From a virus (taxonomy: Duplodnaviria; Heunggongvirae; Uroviricota; Caudoviricetes): a stretch of DNA of 17,357 bases. The notes under the pieces are model-generated. The model worked only from the letters and a program-made list of their open reading frames with translations, ran no database searches and was not told the DNA's origin. How positions within the stretch are numbered: position 1 is the stretch's first letter; the number at the start of each line of letters is the position of its first letter. Position numbers and translations under genes: made by a program. The DNA is taken from the IMG/VR virus record IMGVR_UViG_2663762648_000006, positions 1 through 17,357 of that record. One strand, given 5' to 3'. Below are positions 3,939 through 15,845 of the stretch, in pieces.

Positions 3939-4478
3939 ATGGATATTAAAGATAAAATCAATACCATTTTGTTATGTGACATTGCCATCCACCTAGGTAT
4001 CGAAACTGATATTGATCCACAGCTTGTTAAATATGCTGTGTCATCTGGTAATGATTGGGTTATCAAGGCCGAATATTCACATTTGGATGTTGACGAACCA
4101 AGTAAAGAAGATCGTGATTTTGTTACTGCTGTCTTGAATATGTATCGCGGACTTTCCAATGCTTTCAGGAAACTTAGTGATGACGAGCAAAAAGAATTAG
4201 TCCGTGACCATCATCTAAAAATACATGATGGGGCAATTCAGCTCCCAGGTTTCGACGGTAATAATGAATGCGATTACTTCAGTATCATTGAGGCATATCA
4301 GAAAATTGATCGCTTCCCCGAACAGAAACAGCCCATTGCCAATACTCATTCACGTACAGAACATCTCTATAACGCAATGCTTGATGAGTTTAAGAAAATT
4401 GACGCTGTAAATCGAAGCTGGGATTTATCGAAGGAAGAACTGGCATCCATTCTTTCCACAGCTCCACGCAGTTTCTAA
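3939..4478 (+). CDS. YfbU-family (UPF0304-like) protein; moron antisense to the late operon
   Basis: 179-aa ORF with AGAGGG 8 nt upstream. Local GC is visibly lower than the flanks. Blocks resemble my recollection of E. coli YfbU (NMYRGLS, GFDG, C-terminal LSKEEL...IL). A stem-loop follows the stop. Confidence 0.65.
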   Translation: MDIKDKINTILLCDIAIHLGIETDIDPQLVKYAVSSGNDWVIKAEYSHLDVDEPSKEDRDFVTAVLNMYRGLSNAFRKLSDDEQKELVRDHHLKIHDGAIQLPGFDGNNECDYFSIIEAYQKIDRFPEQKQPIANTHSRTEHLYNAMLDEFKKIDAVNRSWDLSKEELASILSTAPRSF

Positions 4479-4905: not shown

Positions 4906-5388
4906 TTATCTGAGACATTGCTCACGAATGTATAGCTGTGCCCCTTCCAGTTGCTTCTGCATCGTCATCAACCGTTCTCTGAGGGTGAAATAATCCCGTT
5001 CAGCGGTGTCTGCCAGTCTGGGGCTGGTTGCATTATCCACGCTGGTGGGTCCGGTGGCTTCACGCACGGCTGCGGAGCAACTGGCATTGACCCGCAGGCG
5101 CTTACGACCAGCGGCAACATCAGCGCGCAGAGTTTCATTTTCAGCTTTCGCATTGGCTAATTCTCTCGAGTACTTTGCATCGAGCGCAGCAACATCACGC
5201 TGACGCTGCTGCATGTCAGCGATGGTGGCGGTCAGCTGCTTCAGCTCACTGACTTTTTTATCACGCTGTTCTTTGTAGGTGATGGCGTTATCACGGTAAT
5301 GATTGACCGCCCACGACAGGCAGACGATGATGCAGATAACCAGAGCATAAATAATCGCGGCGACTCTGCTCACTGATCTATTCCCCAA
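4906..5388 (-). CDS. Rz-like i-spanin
   Basis: 160 aa with an N-terminal TM segment and a charged coiled-coil-like body, immediately after the endolysin, with an embedded +1-frame lipoprotein ORF. Confidence 0.88.
4968..5153 (-). CDS. Rz1-like o-spanin lipoprotein, embedded in Rz
   Basis: 61 aa with a lipobox (LVVSAC) and a proline-rich body, wholly inside the Rz gene in another frame. Confidence 0.82.
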
Positions 5389-6594: not shown

Positions 6595-6622
6595 TTGAAA
6601 AGAAAAGCCCGCAAAAGCGGGC
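6595..6622 (-). terminator. Rho-independent terminator (tR'-like) between the tRNA cluster and the holin
   Basis: Minus strand reads GCCCGC-TTTT-GCGGGC followed by TTTTCTTTTC. Confidence 0.7.
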
Positions 6623-6829: not shown

Positions 6830-6904
<75 letters not shown>

Positions 6905-6907
6905 ATA

Positions 6908-6983
<76 letters not shown>

Positions 6984-6985
6984 AC

Positions 6986-7062
6986 TGGACCGCCACCGGG
7001 GACTCGAACCTCGCACACTCAACTTAAAGGGTTGACGCTCTTTCCTGATGAACTGGTGACGG
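6986..7062 (-). tRNA. Atypical tRNA-like gene (anticodon loop CCTTTAA, nominally UUU; possibly degenerate)
   Basis: 77 nt with encoded CCA and a T-loop TTCGAGT, but C at position 8, C at position 33 and a T-stem mismatch. It lies 1 nt downstream of the tRNA-Ile-like gene. Confidence 0.4.
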
Positions 7063-7063
7063 T

Positions 7064-7139
7064 TGGTGGCCCTTGCTGGATTTGAACCAGCGACCTGGCG
7101 ATTATGAGTCGCTCGCTCTCACCACTGAGCTAAAGGGCC
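7064..7139 (-). tRNA. ileZ: tRNA with CAU anticodon, tRNA-Ile2 (lysidine) type, ileZ-like
   Basis: 76-nt clean cloverleaf: acceptor GGCCCTT/AAGGGCC, anticodon loop CTCATAA, T-arm GCTGG-TTCAAAT-CCAGC, CCA. It closely resembles my recollection of E. coli ileX and of the tRNA carried by Stx-type phages. Confidence 0.8.
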
Positions 7140-7349: not shown

Positions 7350-8039
7350 TCAATCTACTTTTGCAACACTTTGCTTTGAAAATGCCGCCTTTTGTTTTGA
7401 ACGTGTTCTCATTACAAACAATAAAGCCTCACTATCCAGTCGTTGAAAAATGTGTTTCATTGCAACCCAGTGACGAGTAAATGTTTTGGACCAGTTTTTA
7501 GTTGTCACTCCCGCCAGTAATGCCAGCTCCTGGTATTCATAACCTTCCCCACCAAAAAGTTCTGCTTTTACTGCCTGCGCCGCCAGCCAGATTAATTTTT
7601 TCAGGCGTTCCTGCGTTTTCCCTGCAATTTTTCTGGTACCGGATTGAGTATTAAATTCATTCCACGCCCACTGTGTTATCGCGATCTGATATTCCCAACA
7701 AATACTCTCGCCGTAACACCACAACAACCAGGCTTTATGATGCTCTTCAAGAGACAGCAAAGCCCGCCGCCATGATGATGTCGAAAACTCAACCGGGCTG
7801 ACCAGGGCAATTGATGAGCCATTCGCCAGTGATTGTTTTCCCGGGATTGGTGGATTATCCCGCGTTATCATTTTTCCAGTCACTTCATCGCGGTACCGGA
7901 TTTTTTTTCGCCTGTAACGCCCTGTATCGAACATGGCATTCTCCTGCCAGGCTTCAAGCTGACCTTTTGTTGCCCCACTCAAATCAGCGGTGGCGATAAT
8001 GAGCTGCTCACGCACAAACTGTAAATACTGGTTATTCAT
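7350..8039 (-). CDS. Putative late-gene antiterminator (Q-like); assignment by position only
   Basis: 229 aa from the ATG at 8039, which overlaps the rusA stop (ATGA). It is the last gene before the terminator, promoter, tRNAs and lysis cassette. I do not recognise the sequence as a specific Q family. Confidence 0.45.
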   Translation of the reverse strand: MNNQYLQFVREQLIIATADLSGATKGQLEAWQENAMFDTGRYRRKKIRYRDEVTGKMITRDNPPIPGKQSLANGSSIALVSPVEFSTSSWRRALLSLEEHHKAWLLWCYGESICWEYQIAITQWAWNEFNTQSGTRKIAGKTQERLKKLIWLAAQAVKAELFGGEGYEYQELALLAGVTTKNWSKTFTRHWVAMKHIFQRLDSEALLFVMRTRSKQKAAFSKQSVAKVD

Positions 8040-8401
8040 GCGCACTCCAGTTCTGTGATTTTTATCCCCAGCCGCCCACCAGGAACGAGCTGACCGCGCA
8101 CAATATTGATTTCATCAAACTGCTCGTCGTCTATGAGTAGTCCGGCATGCGTCAGCGCATCCAGTGGTGCTTTCAGGATATTGTCCAGGTCACGACGGCG
8201 CTTATCCGGTGGCTCTGCAATAATCTTTATCGCCAGCCTTCCGGACAGGTTTAATTTCAACCGCTGCTGGCGAACAATTAGCGCCACATCATGGCGATAA
8301 CGCTTTCCGGCCTCCGAGATGAAATACGTATTGCCATGACGTCGCCAGTAGGTATTCACCGTCGGCGGGTAAGGCAAAACAAATTCTATGCGTTCAGTCA
8401 T
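8036..8401 (-). CDS. rusA: Holliday junction resolvase RusA
   Basis: 121 aa with motifs matching my recollection of RusA (PPTVNTYW, DKRRRDLDN...K...DALT). Confidence 0.88.
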   Translation of the reverse strand: MTERIEFVLPYPPTVNTYWRRHGNTYFISEAGKRYRHDVALIVRQQRLKLNLSGRLAIKIIAEPPDKRRRDLDNILKAPLDALTHAGLLIDDEQFDEINIVRGQLVPGGRLGIKITELECA

Positions 8402-9457
8402 TCATGCTTTCCACTTCAGGACACCCGAATTTCTCGCGTGCATTAAAAAACGAATCAGCAACAACAGCTGGCTGCCGTGTTTTTCTTCAAAATCTTTTAC
8501 CCCGGCGTGCAGTTCGTTATGACATTTACGGCACAGCGGAATAACAAACAAATCATCAGCCTTTGTTCCCATCCCTCCCAGTCCATGACCAATGATGTGA
8601 TGCGGATCATCTGCCTGATTACCGCACGTCATGCATTTCTGCGTTTTTACCCAACGCGTGTATACAGGCATCTCTTCCCGTTGTGGTTTCTGGCGCTGGA
8701 GATACTGAGCCGGTGACTCCGGATCAACGGCAATGCTGACCACCGTCTTTTCCTGTGGCGGGTTTTGCTGGTGGGCATGAGGCAACGGCGCAAGATTTTT
8801 TGTGCGCTGCTTCAGTATGCTGGTGGCGGTCTGCTCTCCCGGTACGATGTCGCTTTCGCGGTACAAGGAGCGGATTTTTTCCGCACGTAACCCCAGAGAA
8901 CGACGTAATACTGCCTCCGGAAGCGCGTCCGCCACCTGATTGCAGACCGCCCACCAGGATAATTCAGCCAGCGACAATTCCCGCTCCTGCGTGCCATTCA
9001 TTGCATGGCGTATGACGTCAATCATCCATGCTGACAGGTTTTGATGAGCAAGTTGCCCGAGTGATTCGGATGTCTGGTCACGCAACTGGTTGTCGCAGTG
9101 CCAGCACAACACCATCGCGCCGGTACCGTAACGATGTATGACGATTTCACTGTGATGATAGTCACCATGAGGCCACTGGCAGGATTTGACATGACGCAAC
9201 AGCCAGTCAGACAGTGCCCCAGCGCCGCCAGCAGCACGAATCACCCGCTCATCGCTGAAAAATGGCAGTAATGATTTATCCTCCGCCAGCGGCTGGCGAA
9301 CGGCAGGGACGACTCCGGACGGCAGACCGCGCATGCTTTTCGGTTCAGGCTCCACCAGCACTCGAGGGTTATGAAATACTTGCATGGATTCACGGCCCGG
9401 CCTAAGGACCACCAGCCCGAGTTCCGGTACCAGAACAGGTCGAAGTAATATCCGCAC
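8402..9457 (-). CDS. DUF968-like prophage protein with C-terminal HNH/zinc-finger-like motif (YdfU-like)
   Basis: The long ORF reaches 9529, but a GTG at 9457 has GGAGG 5 nt upstream and sits 1 nt after the upstream gene's stop, so I prefer that start. The C-terminus carries CMTCGN...HHIIGHGLGG...CRKCHNELH. Confidence 0.65.
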   Translation of the reverse strand: MRILLRPVLVPELGLVVLRPGRESMQVFHNPRVLVEPEPKSMRGLPSGVVPAVRQPLAEDKSLLPFFSDERVIRAAGGAGALSDWLLRHVKSCQWPHGDYHHSEIVIHRYGTGAMVLCWHCDNQLRDQTSESLGQLAHQNLSAWMIDVIRHAMNGTQERELSLAELSWWAVCNQVADALPEAVLRRSLGLRAEKIRSLYRESDIVPGEQTATSILKQRTKNLAPLPHAHQQNPPQEKTVVSIAVDPESPAQYLQRQKPQREEMPVYTRWVKTQKCMTCGNQADDPHHIIGHGLGGMGTKADDLFVIPLCRKCHNELHAGVKDFEEKHGSQLLLLIRFLMHARNSGVLKWKA

Positions 9458-9458
9458 G

Positions 9459-9737
9459 TTACCTCCAGATCCGTTGCTGGTATGTGCGGGATGGGCGCGG
9501 TGGGCGTTCGGAATAAGGGAGCCTGACATAGATTATCCAGTGACGATAATCGAGGCTGAGGGCTTTCTTAATCTCGTATCCGCGTCTGCGATAGTTATGA
9601 ATTAGCCATTCGGCCTGTTCTTCAGTACATGGGTCATGCTGGAACCAGTCAGATTTGAAAGTGCGGGAACGCCGCCCGTGCCTGCTGGCAAAGACGGCAG
9701 AATCATCAGAATTGTGTAATTTGGTATCGTGCGCCAT
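9459..9737 (-). CDS. Hypothetical nin-region protein (92 aa from internal ATG)
   Basis: The ORF extends to 9818 with an alternative start; the first ATG is at 9737. Same strand and tightly packed with the DUF968 gene. Confidence 0.45.
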   Translation of the reverse strand: MAHDTKLHNSDDSAVFASRHGRRSRTFKSDWFQHDPCTEEQAEWLIHNYRRRGYEIKKALSLDYRHWIIYVRLPYSERPPRPSRTYQQRIWR

Positions 9738-9814
9738 CGGTTGTCTCTGCTGGCGCAGCAGGTGCCAGTTGTTCAGGCTGGCGTGCGAATTGTAAACCAG
9801 AATGCCAGGAAAAA

Positions 9815-9843
9815 ACAAAACCCGCCGAAGCGGGTATGCTAAA
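9815..9843 (-). terminator. Rho-independent terminator after the lipoprotein gene
   Basis: Minus strand reads CCCGC-TTCG-GCGGG followed by TTTTGTTTTTT. The same motif recurs at the 3' ends of both hok copies. Confidence 0.65.
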
Positions 9844-10033
9844 ACAAACTGAAAGTAATATACCGGACTTGTAAAGGAACGATAGAATAATTATTGGATT
9901 AAACCCTGACTCAATCCAGATTTTATAGGCAACAACTACGGACTAATCATCACAGTCATGTTTGATAGGCTTAGTCCACATTGGGTGAGGGTTTACGGCG
10001 TTTTCACTAATAATTTATCGTCCAAGCTATACA

Positions 10034-10426
10034 CTACTGCCCTGTTTTAACGAAGTTTTTAAAGGAAACAACTGCCTGATAGGGGTTTGGTTGACAGCCA
10101 AACATATTATCGCAAAAAGGCTTGATGAAAATTCTTGAGGATCCATCTTCATTTGGCATTTTACTCACTTGATAAGCGAGGAATGGACTATTTGGAGAGG
10201 GATTATAAGTGGAAATTAGCGTGTCTGTCGCCGTTTGAATTTTCCATGAGGAATTATTAGCCAACCAGAATTGCGCTCGTTTCCAATAAAAGTCACATTG
10301 CTTTTCATCATTACATGTTAGTGGCTTCATTGCTTCTGCTTTCAACGCTGGATCGACCTTTGCTGCACACCCTCCCAACATTACTGTTGCAATCATTACA
10401 CCTGCGACTAAAACAAGTTTCTTCAT
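10034..10426 (-). CDS. Secreted lipoprotein (moron); possible superinfection-exclusion or surface-modifying factor
   Basis: 130 aa with a signal peptide and lipobox (VMLGGC), four further cysteines, and markedly low-GC DNA. It has its own terminator. Confidence 0.7.
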   Translation of the reverse strand: MKKLVLVAGVMIATVMLGGCAAKVDPALKAEAMKPLTCNDEKQCDFYWKRAQFWLANNSSWKIQTATDTLISTYNPSPNSPFLAYQVSKMPNEDGSSRIFIKPFCDNMFGCQPNPYQAVVSFKNFVKTGQ

Positions 10427-10569
10427 CTCCCTGCCCCATCAATAAAAGTTCGGTTCTCTAATAACTAGAGTTAATCAACGGAAAAAACGCCGAAGCGGGT
10501 TAAGTGCGGGTGCGTTGAGGATGCCTGACACATCAGAGGTGGCGAGGGATTTCTCCCCCGCCAGGTCTC

Positions 10570-10782
10570 TTACTCCTCAGGTTCGTAAGCTGTGAAGACA
10601 GCGACCTCCGTCTGGCCGGTTCGGATTCGTACCTCGCAGAGGTCTTTCCTCGTTACCAGTGCCGTCACAATGACGGTTAAACAGATGACGATCAGGGCGA
10701 TTAACATCGCCTTTTGCTGCTTCATAGCCTGCTTCTCCTTGCCTTTCGGCACGTAAGAGGCTAACCTAGATTTGCCGTTCAT
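10570..10782 (-). CDS. hok: Mok/Hok-family type I toxin, copy 1 (Hok/Gef-like 51 aa from the internal ATG at 10725)
   Basis: C-terminal 51 aa (MKQQKAMLIALIVICLTVIVTALVTRKDLCEVRIRTGQTEVAVFTAYEPEE) matches Gef/HokC as I recall it. AAGGAG precedes the internal ATG. The in-frame upstream extension resembles MokC. Confidence 0.85.
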   Translation of the reverse strand: MNGKSRLASYVPKGKEKQAMKQQKAMLIALIVICLTVIVTALVTRKDLCEVRIRTGQTEVAVFTAYEPEE

Positions 10783-10978
10783 AGATTGAGCCTCAGATTA
10801 ATGTTAAGCGTCTTGCAGCAATTCTACTTAAGTATTTTTGATTCTATTCCGGCACCATCTAAAACTTCAAACGCGTTGAAAATAAAAACAAAAACCCGCC
10901 GAAGCGGGTTAAGTGTGGGTGCATTGAGGATGCCTGCCCCATCAGAGGTGGCGAGGGATTTCTCCCCCGCCTGGTCTC

Positions 10979-11191
10979 TTACTCCTCAGGTTCGTAAGCT
11001 GTGAAGACAGCGACCTCCGTCTGGCCGGTTCGGATTCGTACCTCGCAGAGGTCTTTCCTCGTTACCAGTGCCGTCACTATGACGGTTAAACAGATGACGA
11101 TCAGGGCGATTAACATCGCCTTTTGCTGCTTCATAGCCTGCTTCTCCTTGCCTTTCGGCACGTAAGAGGCTAACCTAGATTTGCCGTTCAT
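10979..11191 (-). CDS. hok: Mok/Hok-family type I toxin, copy 2 (identical protein)
   Basis: Translation is identical to copy 1 and lies in the second unit of the tandem duplication. Confidence 0.85.
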   Translation of the reverse strand: MNGKSRLASYVPKGKEKQAMKQQKAMLIALIVICLTVIVTALVTRKDLCEVRIRTGQTEVAVFTAYEPEE

Positions 11192-11387
11192 AGATTGAGC
11201 CTCAGATTAATGTTAAGCGTCTTGCCGGACGCGTAATGTTAACTGGGGCTTTTCTCTATCTGCCTTTGGTGTTCATGCCTGAGGCAGATAGCCTCAAGCA
11301 CCCGCAGCAATTCTACTTAAGTTAGATAAGCTTTTCTATGGTATTCTCTCAGCGTCCCGTAAATACAGTCTCGGCTCATCATTTTTA

Positions 11388-11645
11388 TCACAGGTGCGAG
11401 GAAAATATATAGCGCCCTCCATCAAGCATAACGAAATACATTTTCCATTCATCGCCATTCCTCAATTTAATACGAAGACTTTCCCCGCAAGTGTATTTAT
11501 TAAACAACTGTTCCGATGTGCTAGTAAGAGGTATTTTTACCGTTATTACAACTACTGCCCCACCATTTAACTCTCGAAGTTCAGCATCCGCATCCACAAA
11601 AGATGAATAAATGTTATGATCTGGGTAATCAACAATTAACTGCAT
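11388..11645 (-). CDS. Hypothetical protein, low-GC orphan
   Basis: 85 aa from an ATG with AAGGAG 5 nt upstream. Very AT-rich DNA; no recognisable motif. Confidence 0.5.
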   Translation of the reverse strand: MQLIVDYPDHNIYSSFVDADAELRELNGGAVVVITVKIPLTSTSEQLFNKYTCGESLRIKLRNGDEWKMYFVMLDGGRYIFSSHL

Positions 11646-11783
11646 ATTCACTCCTTAAATATAGCAACTAAAACAAACAACGATTTAACAGTAGGAATTG
11701 TTTTTATAACATATGAACGGTGCAAGATCTATCCAGATGAAGCCTCCCCTCACACCCCCGTCTCATTACATGCATTTACTATC

Positions 11784-12299: not shown

Positions 12300-12472
12300 T
12301 CATCGCCCCACTCATCACAATATGCTTCGACCGGAGTTTTTCCTGCTTCGTAGTCATAACGCCATGCTTCAGCATCAGCGGCACTTCCACCGCGTAACTC
12401 TGCATAGTCCATTAACAGTTCATGCCATTCTTCAAAACTGACGTTGTATTTAGTTGAACCAAAATCAGCCAT
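12296..12472 (-). CDS. Hypothetical small acidic protein
   Basis: Internal ATG at 12472 with AGGAGG 9 nt upstream; overlaps neighbours at both ends. Confidence 0.5.
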   Translation of the reverse strand: MADFGSTKYNVSFEEWHELLMDYAELRGGSAADAEAWRYDYEAGKTPVEAYCDEWGDE

Positions 12473-12647
12473 TTTGTTCTTCCTCCTCATCTTTTATTTC
12501 GTGATATGAGTAATTGCAGTAGTTAAAGAAAATTTCTTTTGCTTCGTCCTGTATTTCATCTGGTGTCGCACCATCATCCACTTCGAATACATCCTCAAAA
12601 TCTCCACCAGCTATTCCCGTTTCAATAATTATTCTGAACTTTCGCAT
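12465..12647 (-). CDS. Hypothetical small acidic protein
   Basis: 60-aa ORF in the same operon-like array. A GC hairpin lies just upstream of the start. Confidence 0.45.
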   Translation of the reverse strand: MRKFRIIIETGIAGGDFEDVFEVDDGATPDEIQDEAKEIFFNYCNYSYHEIKDEEEEQNG

Positions 12648-12742
12648 TTCATTACCGCCCTTTCGGGCGGCCTCCTGATGTTCTGAGGGTGCAGAAATCC
12701 CTCCGGTTAAGGATTAAATTTTATTTACAACACTAAATTTAA

Positions 12743-12943
12743 TTATTCAGGCGCGCGAATCTGTTCCGCACAATGCAACAATGCTTCTGTCACTTCCTTA
12801 AGCGTTACGGTATCGGCATCATCCAGTCCTGCAACTTTTGCGTGCCTGGCAAACGCCGCGCAAAGGTCGTTAAACGCCACCGCCCGTACATCAGCTAGGA
12901 AAGCGTTAGCAGCAGCCAATTCCTGGTAGTCAATCCTGCTCAC
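12743..12943 (-). CDS. Hypothetical small protein
   Basis: 66-aa ORF whose start overlaps the upstream gene's stop. Confidence 0.45.
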   Translation of the reverse strand: MSRIDYQELAAANAFLADVRAVAFNDLCAAFARHAKVAGLDDADTVTLKEVTEALLHCAEQIRAPE

Positions 12944-14973: not shown

Positions 14974-15233
14974 GAATCAACCCCCGCCGATGGTTGTGTG
15001 TTAGCCTGAAACTCAGCAGGCAAGCCGTCAGTTGGGTTGGGGTAGGTTTTACTGTCAATCTCATGTGGGGTCACCACCCATCCCGTTGCTTCACACCAAC
15101 GTAATATTTTTTCTCCTGTAAGTTTTGCACGCCCCGTTATAACGTGGCTGACCATCCCTTGGGATGCGCCAACAATCTCAGCAAATGAACTCTGGGTTAT
15201 ATGAAAATGATGCAAATATTCTCCAAGATTCAT
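14970..15233 (-). CDS. Cro/YdaS-like HTH regulator
   Basis: 87 aa from the ATG at 15233 (the ORF extends to a TTG at 15260). HTH-like segment SQGMVSHVITGRAKL. Divergent from the repressor gene. Confidence 0.7.
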   Translation of the reverse strand: MNLGEYLHHFHITQSSFAEIVGASQGMVSHVITGRAKLTGEKILRWCEATGWVVTPHEIDSKTYPNPTDGLPAEFQANTQPSAGVDS

Positions 15234-15260
15234 AATCCGCCCTATGTGATGTGTTACCAA

Positions 15261-15344
15261 TGCATAATTAATAGCACTGTTATTTTTAAAAGTAAATAGT
15301 GATACTATTTCAAAGTGATTAGCAATCTTATTAGAATTGGATGT
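15261..15344. promoter_or_regulatory. Immunity-region intergenic spacer with divergent promoters and operator-like repeats
   Basis: 84-bp AT-rich spacer between divergent HTH genes, with repeated AGTGAT/AGCACT half-site-like motifs. Confidence 0.45.
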
Positions 15345-15845
15345 ATGAAAAGAAAATCATTGTCAGACACCGACCTCAACGCCGCCAGAAGACTGAAAGA
15401 AATCTGGATGGCAAAGAAATCTCAGTTGGGATTGACTCAGGAACGTGCGGCGGAAATTATGGGGTTTTCAACACAAGGGGCGGTAAGTCACTACCTAAAT
15501 GGTCAAACCCCACTAAACCTTGAGGCTGTTCTAAAGTTTGCTGGCTTACTGAAAGTTCCCCCTGAGTCAATCAGGCCAGACATGGTAGATTTGCTGCAAA
15601 TTGCAAGGATGTATTGTCGAGAACCACAGCAAGATAACATAGTCGCATTACCAGCAGACACAGAACAAACAGAGGATGAACTACCGTTTGCCGTAGAGCC
15701 GATGGAACGAGATTTAATCCATACGTTCAGAGCTTTTCCGAAAGAAGATCAAGAACACATGCTTCAGGAGATGAAAGATAAAAAAGAATCAATGGATCGT
15801 ACGGTTGCGCGGTGGTTAGCTGCACAAAAAGGCCGTCGCGCCTAA
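15345..15845 (+). CDS. Prophage repressor, HTH type (RacR/CI-like, apparently without an S24 peptidase domain)
   Basis: 166 aa from the ATG at 15345. HTH segment LTQERAAEIMGFSTQGAVSHYLNGQ; the C-terminus is acidic and shows no Ser/Lys peptidase motif. Confidence 0.7.
   Translation: MKRKSLSDTDLNAARRLKEIWMAKKSQLGLTQERAAEIMGFSTQGAVSHYLNGQTPLNLEAVLKFAGLLKVPPESIRPDMVDLLQIARMYCREPQQDNIVALPADTEQTEDELPFAVEPMERDLIHTFRAFPKEDQEHMLQEMKDKKESMDRTVARWLAAQKGRRA

What the first reader, a model, noticed from the sequence alone, without database searches (positions are those of the whole stretch)
10034..10426. Low-GC lipoprotein moron in the nin region
This 130-aa lipoprotein, with four additional cysteines, sits in a strongly AT-rich segment and has its own terminator. 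Prophage lipoproteins such as Cor, Llp and Bor often mediate receptor-blocking superinfection exclusion or serum resistance. This one does not resemble those I can recall, so it may be a distinct exclusion or virulence factor.
Basis: partly seen in the sequence, partly recalled or inferred. Interest (0 to 1): 0.5.

Follow-up and report, generated by a model that had tools for sequence, protein, structure and literature searches.

The report
Mobile outer-membrane lipoprotein cassette in prophage
This is a real, well-conserved gene for a small outer-membrane lipoprotein, inserted as a cassette behind the hok toxin gene of an E. coli lambdoid prophage. It belongs to a large unnamed family carried by prophages, tiny plasmids and an integron, and it is a plausible but untested shield of the cell envelope against phages or other outside attack.

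Summary
The ORF at 10034-10426 (-) encodes a 130-aa prolipoprotein with lipobox LGG|C20, Ala at +2 and four more cysteines. It lies in an AT-rich insert (39% vs 49% GC) between hok and rem/ydfU/rusA/Q.

A cassette-free phage (Evi) sets the insert at about 9836-10486. The same hairpin, ACCCGCTTCGGCG(GG), bounds it on both sides. The upstream copy is crippled and no sigma-70 promoter precedes the ATG, so read-through from the hok promoter is likely. A strong terminator sits 198 nt past the stop.

The protein matches no Pfam, NCBIfam, PADLOC or PDB sequence, and is not Cor, Llp, Rtp45 or Bor. It belongs to a large family (1,141 clusters at 50% identity) with an invariant lipobox, two C-x5-C pairs and strong purifying selection. 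The AF2 model is confident (pLDDT 95.6), but the alpha+beta fold is generic (Flpp3, BamC-N, KA1).

Relatives sit in phage tail-tip modules (six sites), just after or near S24-type repressor genes, on 2.5-kb ColE1-type plasmids and beside an integron integrase. Some are fused to PDZ or LysM.

Best reading: a self-sufficient, carrier-expressed envelope protector, most likely blocking phage entry (about 0.4). A periplasmic immunity or inhibitor role is the main rival. Function is untested.

The parts
10034..10426 (-). Prolipoprotein ORF, 130 aa (mature 111 aa, 12.6 kDa, pI 8.6)
   Evidence: Identical to WP_000737636.1 of E. coli 042. PHROG 16082, E 2.6e-84, function unknown. dN/dS 0.07-0.11.
10370..10426 (-). 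Signal peptide, residues 1-19. The lipobox L17-G-G-C20 spans 10367-10378.
   Evidence: PS51257-type pattern match, +2 Ala. In all 80 family members the lipobox Cys is invariant and +2 is A (69), V (9), N (1) or G (1), never Asp.
10295..10315 (-). First C-x5-C pair, Cys38...Cys44 (CNDEKQC)
   Evidence: Both Cys are invariant in 80 sequences; the spacing is 5 in 79 of 80.
10094..10114 (-). Second C-x5-C pair, Cys105...Cys111 (CDNMFGC; family consensus CxNxFGC)
   Evidence: Cys105 is invariant and Cys111 is present in 79 of 80; the spacing is 5 in 73 of 80.
10427..10481 (-). 5' leader shared with Enterobacter and Pantoea cassettes (TTTAYTGATGGGG.AGGGA-ATG; SD-like GGGG 7 nt before the ATG). The TGnTAGGAT extended -10-like element of relatives is degenerate here (AGtTATTAG).
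   Evidence: The consensus scan finds no sigma-70 promoter here.
10482..10499 (-). Crippled hairpin plus T-run at the hok-B/cassette junction (CCCGCTTCGGCG-TTTTTT; the two G that close the stem are missing)
   Evidence: Fold energy -4.5 kcal/mol, no better than shuffles, against -11.8 and -13.1 for the intact copies. The junction is identical in 48 of the 50 fetched loci that carry this start-codon core; in L028 it is the same from TTAACCCGC onward.
9836..10033 (-). AT-rich (36% GC) 198-nt 3' tail of the insert with no credible ORF. Bases 9919-9987 are absent from about 12 of 59 related loci.
9810..9835 (-). Intrinsic terminator (ACCCGCTTCGGCGGGT + TTTGTTTTTT) that ends the insert. It is the same hairpin that ends hok in phage Evi.
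10841..10870 (-). Promoter-like site TTGAAG-18-TAGAAT upstream of hok copy B. It is the nearest candidate promoter able to drive the lipoprotein gene by read-through.
   Evidence: one search gives the consensus match only; the read-through is an inference.
10570..10782 (-). hok copy B (70-aa Hok/Gef reading frame), immediately upstream of the cassette
   Evidence: PF01848, E 3e-23. Copy B spans 10482-10818 by BLAST to phage Evi. The repeat finder aligns 300 nt (10482-10781 with 10891-11190) at 97%.
10891..11320 (-). hok copy A with the sok region (Rfam RF01794 at 11129-11303) and an intact terminator (10893-10910)

Best explanation
The segment at about 9836-10486 is a horizontally mobile single-gene cassette (a moron in the broad sense) encoding an outer-membrane lipoprotein.

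Shown. The precursor has a canonical type-II signal peptide with no Asp at +2. The mature 111-residue domain carries two invariant C-x5-C cysteine pairs. It is confidently predicted to fold as a compact alpha+beta domain: a four-to-five-stranded antiparallel sheet packed against two long helices. The gene is absent from otherwise collinear phages. It is flanked by copies of one GC-rich hairpin. Its family travels on prophages, phage-plasmids, ColE1-type mini-plasmids and next to an integron integrase.

Inferred from established pathways. [quoted passage not shown] It faces the periplasm, with two disulfides made by DsbA. In E. coli it is transcribed in the lysogen by read-through from the hok promoter across the crippled hairpin, and the transcript ends at 9820-9835.

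Inferred function, and my commitment. The protein protects the carrier cell at the envelope. The most likely route is binding the periplasmic side of an outer-membrane protein or entry complex that incoming phages need. That would block adsorption or DNA entry. This is superinfection exclusion as in Llp/FhuA and Rtp45/LptD, achieved by an unrelated, twice-as-large protein.
For: Lipoprotein signal and OM sorting residues.
Insert boundaries and the empty site in phage Evi.
Hairpin copies occur 4 times against 0.11 expected by chance. The same hairpin precedes the homologue in Enterobacter and Pantoea prophages.
The upstream hairpin is crippled (-4.5 vs -11.8 and -13.1 kcal/mol) and this is fixed in 48 of 50 fetched loci that carry the gene.
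The only upstream promoter-like site is the hok one.
Relatives have extended -10-like elements: TGnTAGGAT and TGtTAAAAT on the plasmid. They have terminators just after the stop. They therefore look constitutively expressed.
Family size: 1,141 clusters.
Conservation and purifying selection.
Robust fold: pLDDT 95.6, all five models at least 94.
Contexts pointing to the phage adsorption and entry apparatus:
- between gpH and gpM
- between gpI and gpJ
- upstream of gpI/gpJ
- next to a gpM remnant
- in an RcGTA-like tail module
- between gpK and gpI/J of a Klebsiella phage-plasmid.
Known exclusion lipoprotein genes are likewise linked to receptor-binding protein genes (my own knowledge). Their mechanism is described in PMC12685063 and PMC9586334.
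Contexts pointing to expression from the prophage: directly after an S24 repressor gene, same strand, and near sieB.
Contexts pointing to a self-sufficient benefit for the carrier: the main cargo of 2.5-4 kb ColRNAI plasmids and the first ORF beside an integron integrase.
Against: - There are no experimental data, and no sequence or fold similarity to any known exclusion protein.
- The fold matches are generic helix-grip/TBP-like domains with unrelated functions.
- In E. coli the gene lies in the nin region, far from tail genes. The two cultured phages that carry it are named vB_EcoS and vB_EcoM, so it is not tied to one tail type (names only, not verified).
- The E. coli copy lacks a recognisable promoter, so expression in lysogens is an inference.
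- Presence on plasmids and in an integron, and the LysM and PDZ fusions, fit other periplasmic protective roles equally well.
- Tail modules are general moron hot-spots, so the positional argument is only suggestive.
Confidence: 0.4

Rival explanations
1. It is a periplasmic immunity or inhibitor protein. The OM-anchored domain binds and neutralises an incoming envelope-degrading enzyme or toxin. Candidates are lysozyme, a T6SS amidase or muramidase effector, a periplasm-acting bacteriocin, or a phage tail or lysis hydrolase. One of its disulfide-stapled C-x5-C loops would serve as the binding or inhibitory loop.
For: - Two invariant, rigidly spaced C-x5-C motifs. The second (CxNxFGC) is among the best-conserved stretches.
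- Acinetobacter plasmids carry the domain behind a type-I signal peptide and a peptidoglycan-binding LysM domain.
- PDZ fusions exist.
- It is the main cargo of ColE1-type mini-plasmids, a replicon class that classically carries bacteriocin and immunity genes (my own knowledge).
- In several tail modules it lies next to the NlpC/P60 (gpK) gene.
Against: - No toxin or effector gene accompanies it in any of the 15 contexts read.
- Its recurrence inside the tail-tip modules of temperate phages is not obviously explained.
Confidence: 0.25
2. It is a host-physiology or virulence factor in the manner of Bor/Iss. The lipoprotein would alter serum resistance, adhesion, envelope-stress signalling or outer-membrane biogenesis (for example by touching the Bam, Lpt or Rcs machinery), and so raise lysogen fitness independently of phages.
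For: - OM lipoprotein on prophages of pathogens such as EAEC 042 and STEC strains.
- Like RcsF it has about 130 residues with four non-lipid cysteines (my own knowledge).
Against: - The family is spread across environmental Proteobacteria and metagenomes (Rhodanobacteraceae, Asticcacaulis, Shewanella, Mycetohabitans), where serum resistance is irrelevant.
- No match to the Bor, RcsF or BamC families.
- The fold similarity is generic and shared with eukaryotic KA1 and Bet v 1 domains.
Confidence: 0.15
3. It has a lytic-cycle function for the phage itself. It could be a tail-assembly or lysis accessory. Or, like T5 Llp during infection, it could mask receptors on debris to protect released progeny, with no role in the lysogen.
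For: - In six contexts it lies on the same strand inside tail gene clusters.
- In E. coli it lies in the pR-driven nin region and lacks its own promoter.
Against: - It also occurs on plasmids with no phage genes, beside an integron integrase and directly after repressor genes.
- It is absent from collinear functional phages such as Evi.
- It is bracketed by terminators and carries promoter-like elements in relatives.
- The window has its own Rz-type spanin gene (4906-5388; annotation of the identical phage).
Confidence: 0.07
4. It is a decaying passenger or an annotation artefact with no function in E. coli.
For: - The promoter element is degenerate and the upstream hairpin is damaged.
- Frameshifted or truncated copies exist (P0012, P0006, P0013).
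- IS insertions lie next to it in some loci.
Against: - The full-length ORF is 95-100% identical in 55 of 59 viral contigs.
- 254 complete E. coli genomes carry at least 80% of the 761-nt cassette query.
- dN/dS is about 0.1 with saturated dS.
- All five cysteines are retained.
Confidence: 0.03

Closest known systems
[quoted passage not shown]
   Same: Phage-borne lipoproteins with a type-II signal peptide, anchored in the inner leaflet of the outer membrane and stabilised by disulfides. Relatives of the present gene often sit next to tail-tip or host-specificity genes, as the exclusion genes do (mechanism from PMC12685063, and PMC9586334).
   Different: No sequence match. The mature protein is about 12.6 kDa with two cysteine pairs and a globular alpha+beta fold. 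Llp and Rtp45 are about 6-7 kDa with one disulfide. The E. coli copy is in the nin region, not next to a receptor-binding protein gene. No target is known.
Cor (phi80, N15, T1, HK022; FhuA-dependent exclusion)
   Same: A prophage-encoded small lipoprotein and accessory gene of lambdoid phages.
   Different: The PHROG 1119 (Cor) match is E 0.007 and covers only residues 1-44, i.e. the signal peptide, aligned to profile positions 1-39 of 78. There is no similarity in the mature part.
Lambda Bor / Iss (serum-resistance lipoproteins) and the moron concept of lambdoid phages (my own knowledge: Juhala et al. 2000, HK97/HK022)
   Same: An accessory gene with deviant base composition, present or absent between collinear genomes and bracketed by transcription signals. 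An OM lipoprotein.
   Different: No match to the Lambda_Bor family. In E. coli the upstream terminator and the promoter element are degenerate, so the cassette looks transcriptionally fused to hok rather than autonomous.
Flpp3 (DUF3568) of Francisella and the N-terminal domain of BamC
Ivy-type periplasmic lysozyme inhibitors (my own knowledge)
   Same: A periplasmic alpha+beta protein of similar size whose functional element is a short loop closed by a disulfide (CKPHDC in Ivy).

Membership tests
Bacterial lipoprotein (type-II signal peptide, PROSITE PS51257) | Positively charged n-region, hydrophobic h-region, and a lipobox [LVI][ASTVIG][GAS]C within the first 40 residues or so | tested here: met
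   MKK-LVLVAGVMIATVM-LGG|C20; pattern match. The lipobox Cys is invariant in 80 relatives.
Bacterial lipoprotein (type-II signal peptide, PROSITE PS51257) | Outer-membrane sorting: no Asp at +2 (Lol avoidance rule of Enterobacterales) | tested here: met
   +2 is Ala here. Among 80 relatives it is A (69), V (9), N (1) or G (1).
Bacterial lipoprotein (type-II signal peptide, PROSITE PS51257) | Actual lipidation and LspA cleavage | not testable with these tools
   Needs globomycin or palmitate labelling, or mass spectrometry.
Moron (accessory cassette of lambdoid phages) | Present or absent between otherwise collinear phage genomes | tested here: met
   Phage Evi joins window 9835 directly to the hok hairpin. 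89 phage records match only the flanks; 2 carry the insert.
Moron (accessory cassette of lambdoid phages) | Base composition different from the neighbours | tested here: met
   0.39 against 0.49 in the window. The gene is also below its flanks in 9 of 12 other contexts.
Moron (accessory cassette of lambdoid phages) | Own promoter | tested here: inconclusive
   There is no consensus sigma-70 site upstream of the ATG in the window or in L009, L013 and L004. By eye, relatives have extended -10-like TGnTAGGAT or TGtTAAAAT. The E. coli copy has AGtTATTAG.
Moron (accessory cassette of lambdoid phages) | Own factor-independent terminator | tested here: met
   Terminator at 9820-9835(-) plus a T-run, although 198 nt from the stop and identical to the hok terminator. 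Relatives have terminators 20-50 nt after the stop.
Moron (accessory cassette of lambdoid phages) | Expressed from the repressed prophage | not testable with these tools
   Needs RNA-seq or 5'RACE of a lysogen.
Cor exclusion lipoproteins (PHROG 1119) | Profile match over the mature protein | tested here: not met
   E 0.007; residues 1-44 align to profile positions 1-39 of 78, i.e. the signal peptide only.
Llp / Rtp45 exclusion lipoproteins | Sequence similarity to the solved chains; mature size of about 6-7 kDa with one disulfide | tested here: not met
   PDB-wide phmmer and profile searches give nothing beyond signal-peptide-level hits. The mature protein is 12.6 kDa with four Cys.
Llp / Rtp45 exclusion lipoproteins | Binds the periplasmic face of the phage's OM receptor and abolishes RBP binding | not testable with these tools
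   Needs plating, adsorption and pull-down experiments, or complex prediction.
Bor/Iss (Pfam Lambda_Bor) and Lom/Ail | Pfam profile match | tested here: not met
   No Pfam family at E<=1 except a chance C4 collagen hit.
o-spanin (Rz1) | Short proline-rich OM lipoprotein embedded in or adjacent to the Rz gene in the lysis cassette | tested here: not met
   The PHROG 812 hit is E 0.21 and covers the signal peptide only. The gene is 4.6 kb from the lysis cassette, which has its own Rz (4906-5388). The protein is globular at 111 aa.
DUF3568 / Flpp3 | Pfam profile match; Bet v 1-like lipoprotein fold | tested here: inconclusive
Known anti-phage defence proteins (PADLOC-DB 2.0) | Profile match | tested here: not met
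   No hit at E<=1 for the window protein or four distant relatives.

The most novel reading that the evidence does not exclude
The gene is the E. coli representative of a large, unnamed and structurally well-defined family. The family has at least 1,100 clusters at 50% identity, an OM lipid anchor, two C-x5-C pairs and optional PDZ or LysM modules. Under this reading it forms a new, widespread class of single-gene envelope-level anti-phage or entry-exclusion proteins. The family is traded between prophage tail modules, positions just after repressor genes, mini-plasmids and integrons. It would act on a periplasm-exposed target by a mechanism different from the 6-7 kDa Llp/Cor/Rtp45 lipoproteins.
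Probability: 0.3. Interest if true: 0.65.

Novelty: new variant of a known kind. Interest (0 to 1): 0.45.

Why it matters
Prophage and plasmid accessory lipoproteins are an established but thinly sampled route to phage resistance and altered envelope properties. The few characterised ones (Llp, Cor, Rtp45, Bor) are small and unrelated to this protein.

This is a compact, confidently modelled domain with no annotation in any curated library. It is nevertheless present in about 5% of complete E. coli genomes and in more than a thousand sequence clusters. It turns up as a single-gene cargo on four kinds of mobile element.

That distribution argues for a simple, portable, selectable phenotype that one cloning experiment could test. 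If the phenotype is phage exclusion or toxin immunity, it would add a new family to defence and immunity catalogues. It would also help predict phage host range in Enterobacterales.

The cassette also illustrates how one short GC-rich terminator hairpin recurs at module junctions in unrelated prophages and may serve as a recombination joint.

Tried and rejected
- Pfam, NCBIfam, PADLOC, PDB sequence (single protein and 80-sequence profile): no family. Weak hits were to signal peptides or chance matches.
- PHROG gives only unknown-function families 16082 and 4186.
- Foldseek against PDB and BFVD: nothing below E 0.01. The afdb50 library was unavailable.
- The GTDB genome scan with the close alignment found no confirmed locus.
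- Literature searches by accession (WP_000737636, WP_032201349, A0A0B1FDW6) found nothing. A keyword search found no paper on this family.
- tblastn of three family members against 50,697 phage records found only the two induced E. coli prophages.
- Spanin, Cor, Bor and Lom identities were considered and rejected (see the membership tests).
- The 198-nt 3' tail was checked for ORFs. Only 30-41 aa frames of no evident significance were found.
- The unrelated second lipoprotein genes that follow some homologues do not suggest a gene remnant there. This was not tested by direct comparison.

Full report
OBSERVATION. The N-terminus MKKLVLVAGVMIATVMLGG|CAAK has two lysines, a 14-residue hydrophobic core and the lipobox LGGC. 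It fits the PROSITE-type lipoprotein pattern. Residue +2 is Ala, so the Lol rule predicts outer-membrane sorting. Four more cysteines lie at residues 38, 44, 105 and 111. The ORF is 40.2% GC (GC3 36.6%) in a window of 49.1%. The window is an E. coli lambdoid (Qin-like) prophage read backwards, so its minus strand is the rightward, early-to-late direction. In transcription order the genes are DUF977, unknowns, hok x2, the lipoprotein gene, a rem-like ORF, DUF968/YdfU, RusA, Q, three tRNAs and the lysis genes. 'nin region' is therefore a fair description.

THE INSERT. Phage Evi is collinear on both sides but lacks the gene. Window 9300-9835 continues directly from the hok terminator in Evi. The insert is about 9836-10486. 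It is bounded on both sides by the same hairpin core, ACCCGCTTCGGCG. The motif CCCGCTTCGGCGGG, allowing up to 2 mismatches, occurs four times in the window against 0.11 expected. The same hairpin precedes the homologous gene in Enterobacter and Pantoea prophages, where no hok is present. It therefore travels with the cassette and probably served as the short homology for insertion. That last step is an inference. The cassette query is at least 80% covered in 254 of 5,426 complete E. coli genomes. The gene is found in 59 IMG/VR contigs, 55 of them at least 95% identical. Only 2 of 50,697 phage records carry it.

TRANSCRIPTION SIGNALS. The terminator downstream (stem 9820-9835, then TTTGTTTTTT) is strong: -13.1 kcal/mol, z -3.4. 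It lies 198 nt past the stop codon, after an ORF-less 36%-GC tail. The hairpin upstream of the gene has lost the two G that close its stem. It folds no better than shuffled sequence: -4.5 kcal/mol against -11.8 for the intact hok-A copy. This damaged junction is identical in 48 of the 50 fetched loci that contain the gene's start. In L028 the junction is the same from TTAACCCGC onward, and L014 has an IS upstream. The consensus scan finds no sigma-70 promoter between the hairpin and the ATG. The nearest one upstream is TTGAAG-18-TAGAAT in front of hok copy B. In relatives the leader is conserved (TTTACTGATGGGGATAGGGA-ATG) even though synonymous sites in the ORF are saturated. By eye it is preceded by an extended -10-like element: TGnTAGGAT in Enterobacter and Pantoea, and TGtTAAAAT on the Citrobacter plasmid. 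In E. coli this element reads AGtTATTAG. Relatives also have terminators 20-50 nt after the stop. My inference is that the ancestral unit was hairpin, extended -10 promoter, ORF and terminator. The E. coli version has lost its insulation and promoter and is probably co-transcribed with hok.

WHERE RELATIVES LIVE. I read 15 independent contexts.
- Tail-tip modules of siphophage-type prophages, on the same strand as the tail genes, at six different junctions:
  - gpH|gpM in Enterobacter
  - gpI|gpJ in Pantoea ananatis
  - before a second lipoprotein gene, gpI and gpJ in Pantoea sp.
  - beside a gpM remnant in Phytobacter
  - in an RcGTA-like tail module
  - gpK|gpI-J in a Klebsiella phage-plasmid, as a PDZ fusion.
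- Immunity regions:
  - directly after an S24 repressor gene, same strand
  - after a repressor plus an ion-channel gene, as a PDZ fusion
  - beside ParDE and near SieB in Yersinia.
- Other mobile DNA:
  - an IS/TA island
  - next to an integrase
  - the largest ORF of 2.5-4 kb ColRNAI plasmids of Citrobacter and Salmonella, and of an 8.6-kb Enterobacter relative
  - the first ORF beside an integron integrase on a Shewanella conjugative plasmid, attC not checked
  - fused to LysM behind a type-I signal peptide on about 110-kb Acinetobacter plasmids.
PDZ fusions recur, and one tandem-domain protein exists.

MECHANISM. What is shown: it is an exported lipoprotein of a conserved family, mobile as a single gene, and placed where lysogen-expressed accessory genes sit. 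What follows from established pathways: Sec/Lgt/LspA/Lnt/Lol delivery to the periplasmic leaflet of the outer membrane, and DsbA-made disulfides. What is inferred is the function. It appears as sole cargo on mini-plasmids and in the first-cassette position next to an integron integrase. That argues for a self-sufficient benefit to the carrier and against a virion or lysis role. Its recurrence in tail-tip modules and next to repressor and Sie genes mirrors cor, llp and rtp45. Llp and Rtp45 bind the periplasmic side of the phage's receptor (PMC12685063; PMC9586334). I therefore favour entry or superinfection exclusion at about 0.4.

The main rival, at about 0.25, is a periplasmic immunity or inhibitor protein against a peptidoglycan hydrolase or bacteriocin. 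The disulfide-stapled loops, the LysM and PDZ fusions and the ColE1-type carriers suggest it. The absence of any partner toxin gene weakens it. A Bor-like or envelope-physiology role (about 0.15), a purely lytic-cycle role (about 0.07) and decay (about 0.03) are less likely.

COMPARISON AND NOVELTY. It works like a moron-borne OM lipoprotein, but it fails the membership tests for Cor, Llp/Rtp45, Bor, Lom and the o-spanins. Homology to Flpp3/DUF3568 is neither shown nor excluded. It is about twice the size of the known exclusion lipoproteins and has two cysteine pairs and a different fold. I rate it a new variant of a known kind. The gene and its family are unannotated and uncharacterised, but the biological category is familiar. 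Interest is moderate at 0.45: a specialist would not be astonished, yet the family's size, robust fold and multi-element distribution make it a cheap and promising target for a phage-challenge experiment.

Noticed in passing
window 10482-11320 (-): There are two tandem hok units 409 nt apart, 97% identical over 300 nt. Copy A (10891-11320) has the sok/leader region (Rfam RF01794, 11129-11303). Copy B (10482-10818) lacks about 80 nt of that leader, including the sok region, but keeps a promoter-like TTGAAG-18-TAGAAT and a 19-nt repeat (10815-10833 = 11304-11322). None of the top-ranked matches among 5,426 complete E. coli genomes carries the A/B junction as one piece; the listed ones show a single hok. 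All fetched related loci also have a single hok. A hok copy without its antisense partner, feeding into the lipoprotein gene, may be worth a look.
   Followed up: partly
window 9821-9834, 10486-10499, 10895-10908, 6608-6621 (-); L009 about 7925-7945; L013 7918-7936: One GC-rich tetraloop hairpin (CCCGCTTCGGCGGG plus a T-run) recurs at module junctions in this prophage: 4 copies against 0.11 expected. It also sits in front of the homologous cassette in Enterobacter and Pantoea prophages. It looks like a shared terminator that doubles as a recombination joint.
   Followed up: partly
window 3939-4478 (+): A 179-aa ORF lies on the opposite strand in a 36-41% GC island between the Rz gene and the HNH/terminase genes. 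It matches PHROG 6084 (unknown function, E 8e-83) and is annotated hypothetical in phage vB_EcoS-689R5. It is a second candidate moron in the window.
   Followed up: partly
window 6833-7139 (-): Three tRNA genes lie between the Q antiterminator and the holin gene (Rfam RF00005). The identical phage record annotates them as Gly-TCC, Thr-TGT and Met-CAT.
   Followed up: no
L014 1-331; L028 6592-7920: In one viral contig an IS (its transposase N-terminus looks IS3-family by eye; not tested) ends 7 bp upstream of the lipoprotein ATG and replaces the whole leader. In another contig a 1.3-kb insertion sits exactly at the crippled hairpin junction. Both could supply new promoters.
   Followed up: partly
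window 9919-9987: A 69-bp stretch of the 3' tail is absent from about 12 of 59 related loci. It contains an inverted repeat (GGACTAA...TTAGTCC) and a direct repeat (ATAGGC). L067 lacks a different stretch, 9843-9942.
   Followed up: partly
L013 8386-8721; L068 about 8370-8760; L012 1456-1944: In three contexts the homologue is immediately followed, sometimes with overlap, by a second lipoprotein gene. The three second genes appear unrelated to each other by eye. One matches PHROG 914, of unknown function. Lipoprotein accessory genes seem to accumulate at the same hot-spots.
   Followed up: partly
L079 4696-6702: A same-strand run resembling a cI operon reads S24 repressor, then a 203-aa ion-channel-like protein (Ion_trans/Ion_trans_2), then a PDZ-fused homologue of the lipoprotein. 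The channel gene in this position is reminiscent of abortive-infection or exclusion genes.
   Followed up: no
window 11401-11700, 12451-12750, 15151-15450: There are further AT-rich islands (GC 0.36-0.38). The first overlaps an 87-aa ORF (11388-11651) with no Pfam or PHROG match.
   Followed up: no
protein collection, cluster of the window protein: The 90%-identity cluster that holds this lipoprotein (1,137 members) also lists many 70-aa Hok proteins, and its representative is an 87-aa fragment. This is apparently a clustering artefact, so the member count of 1,137 overstates the lipoprotein.
   Followed up: no
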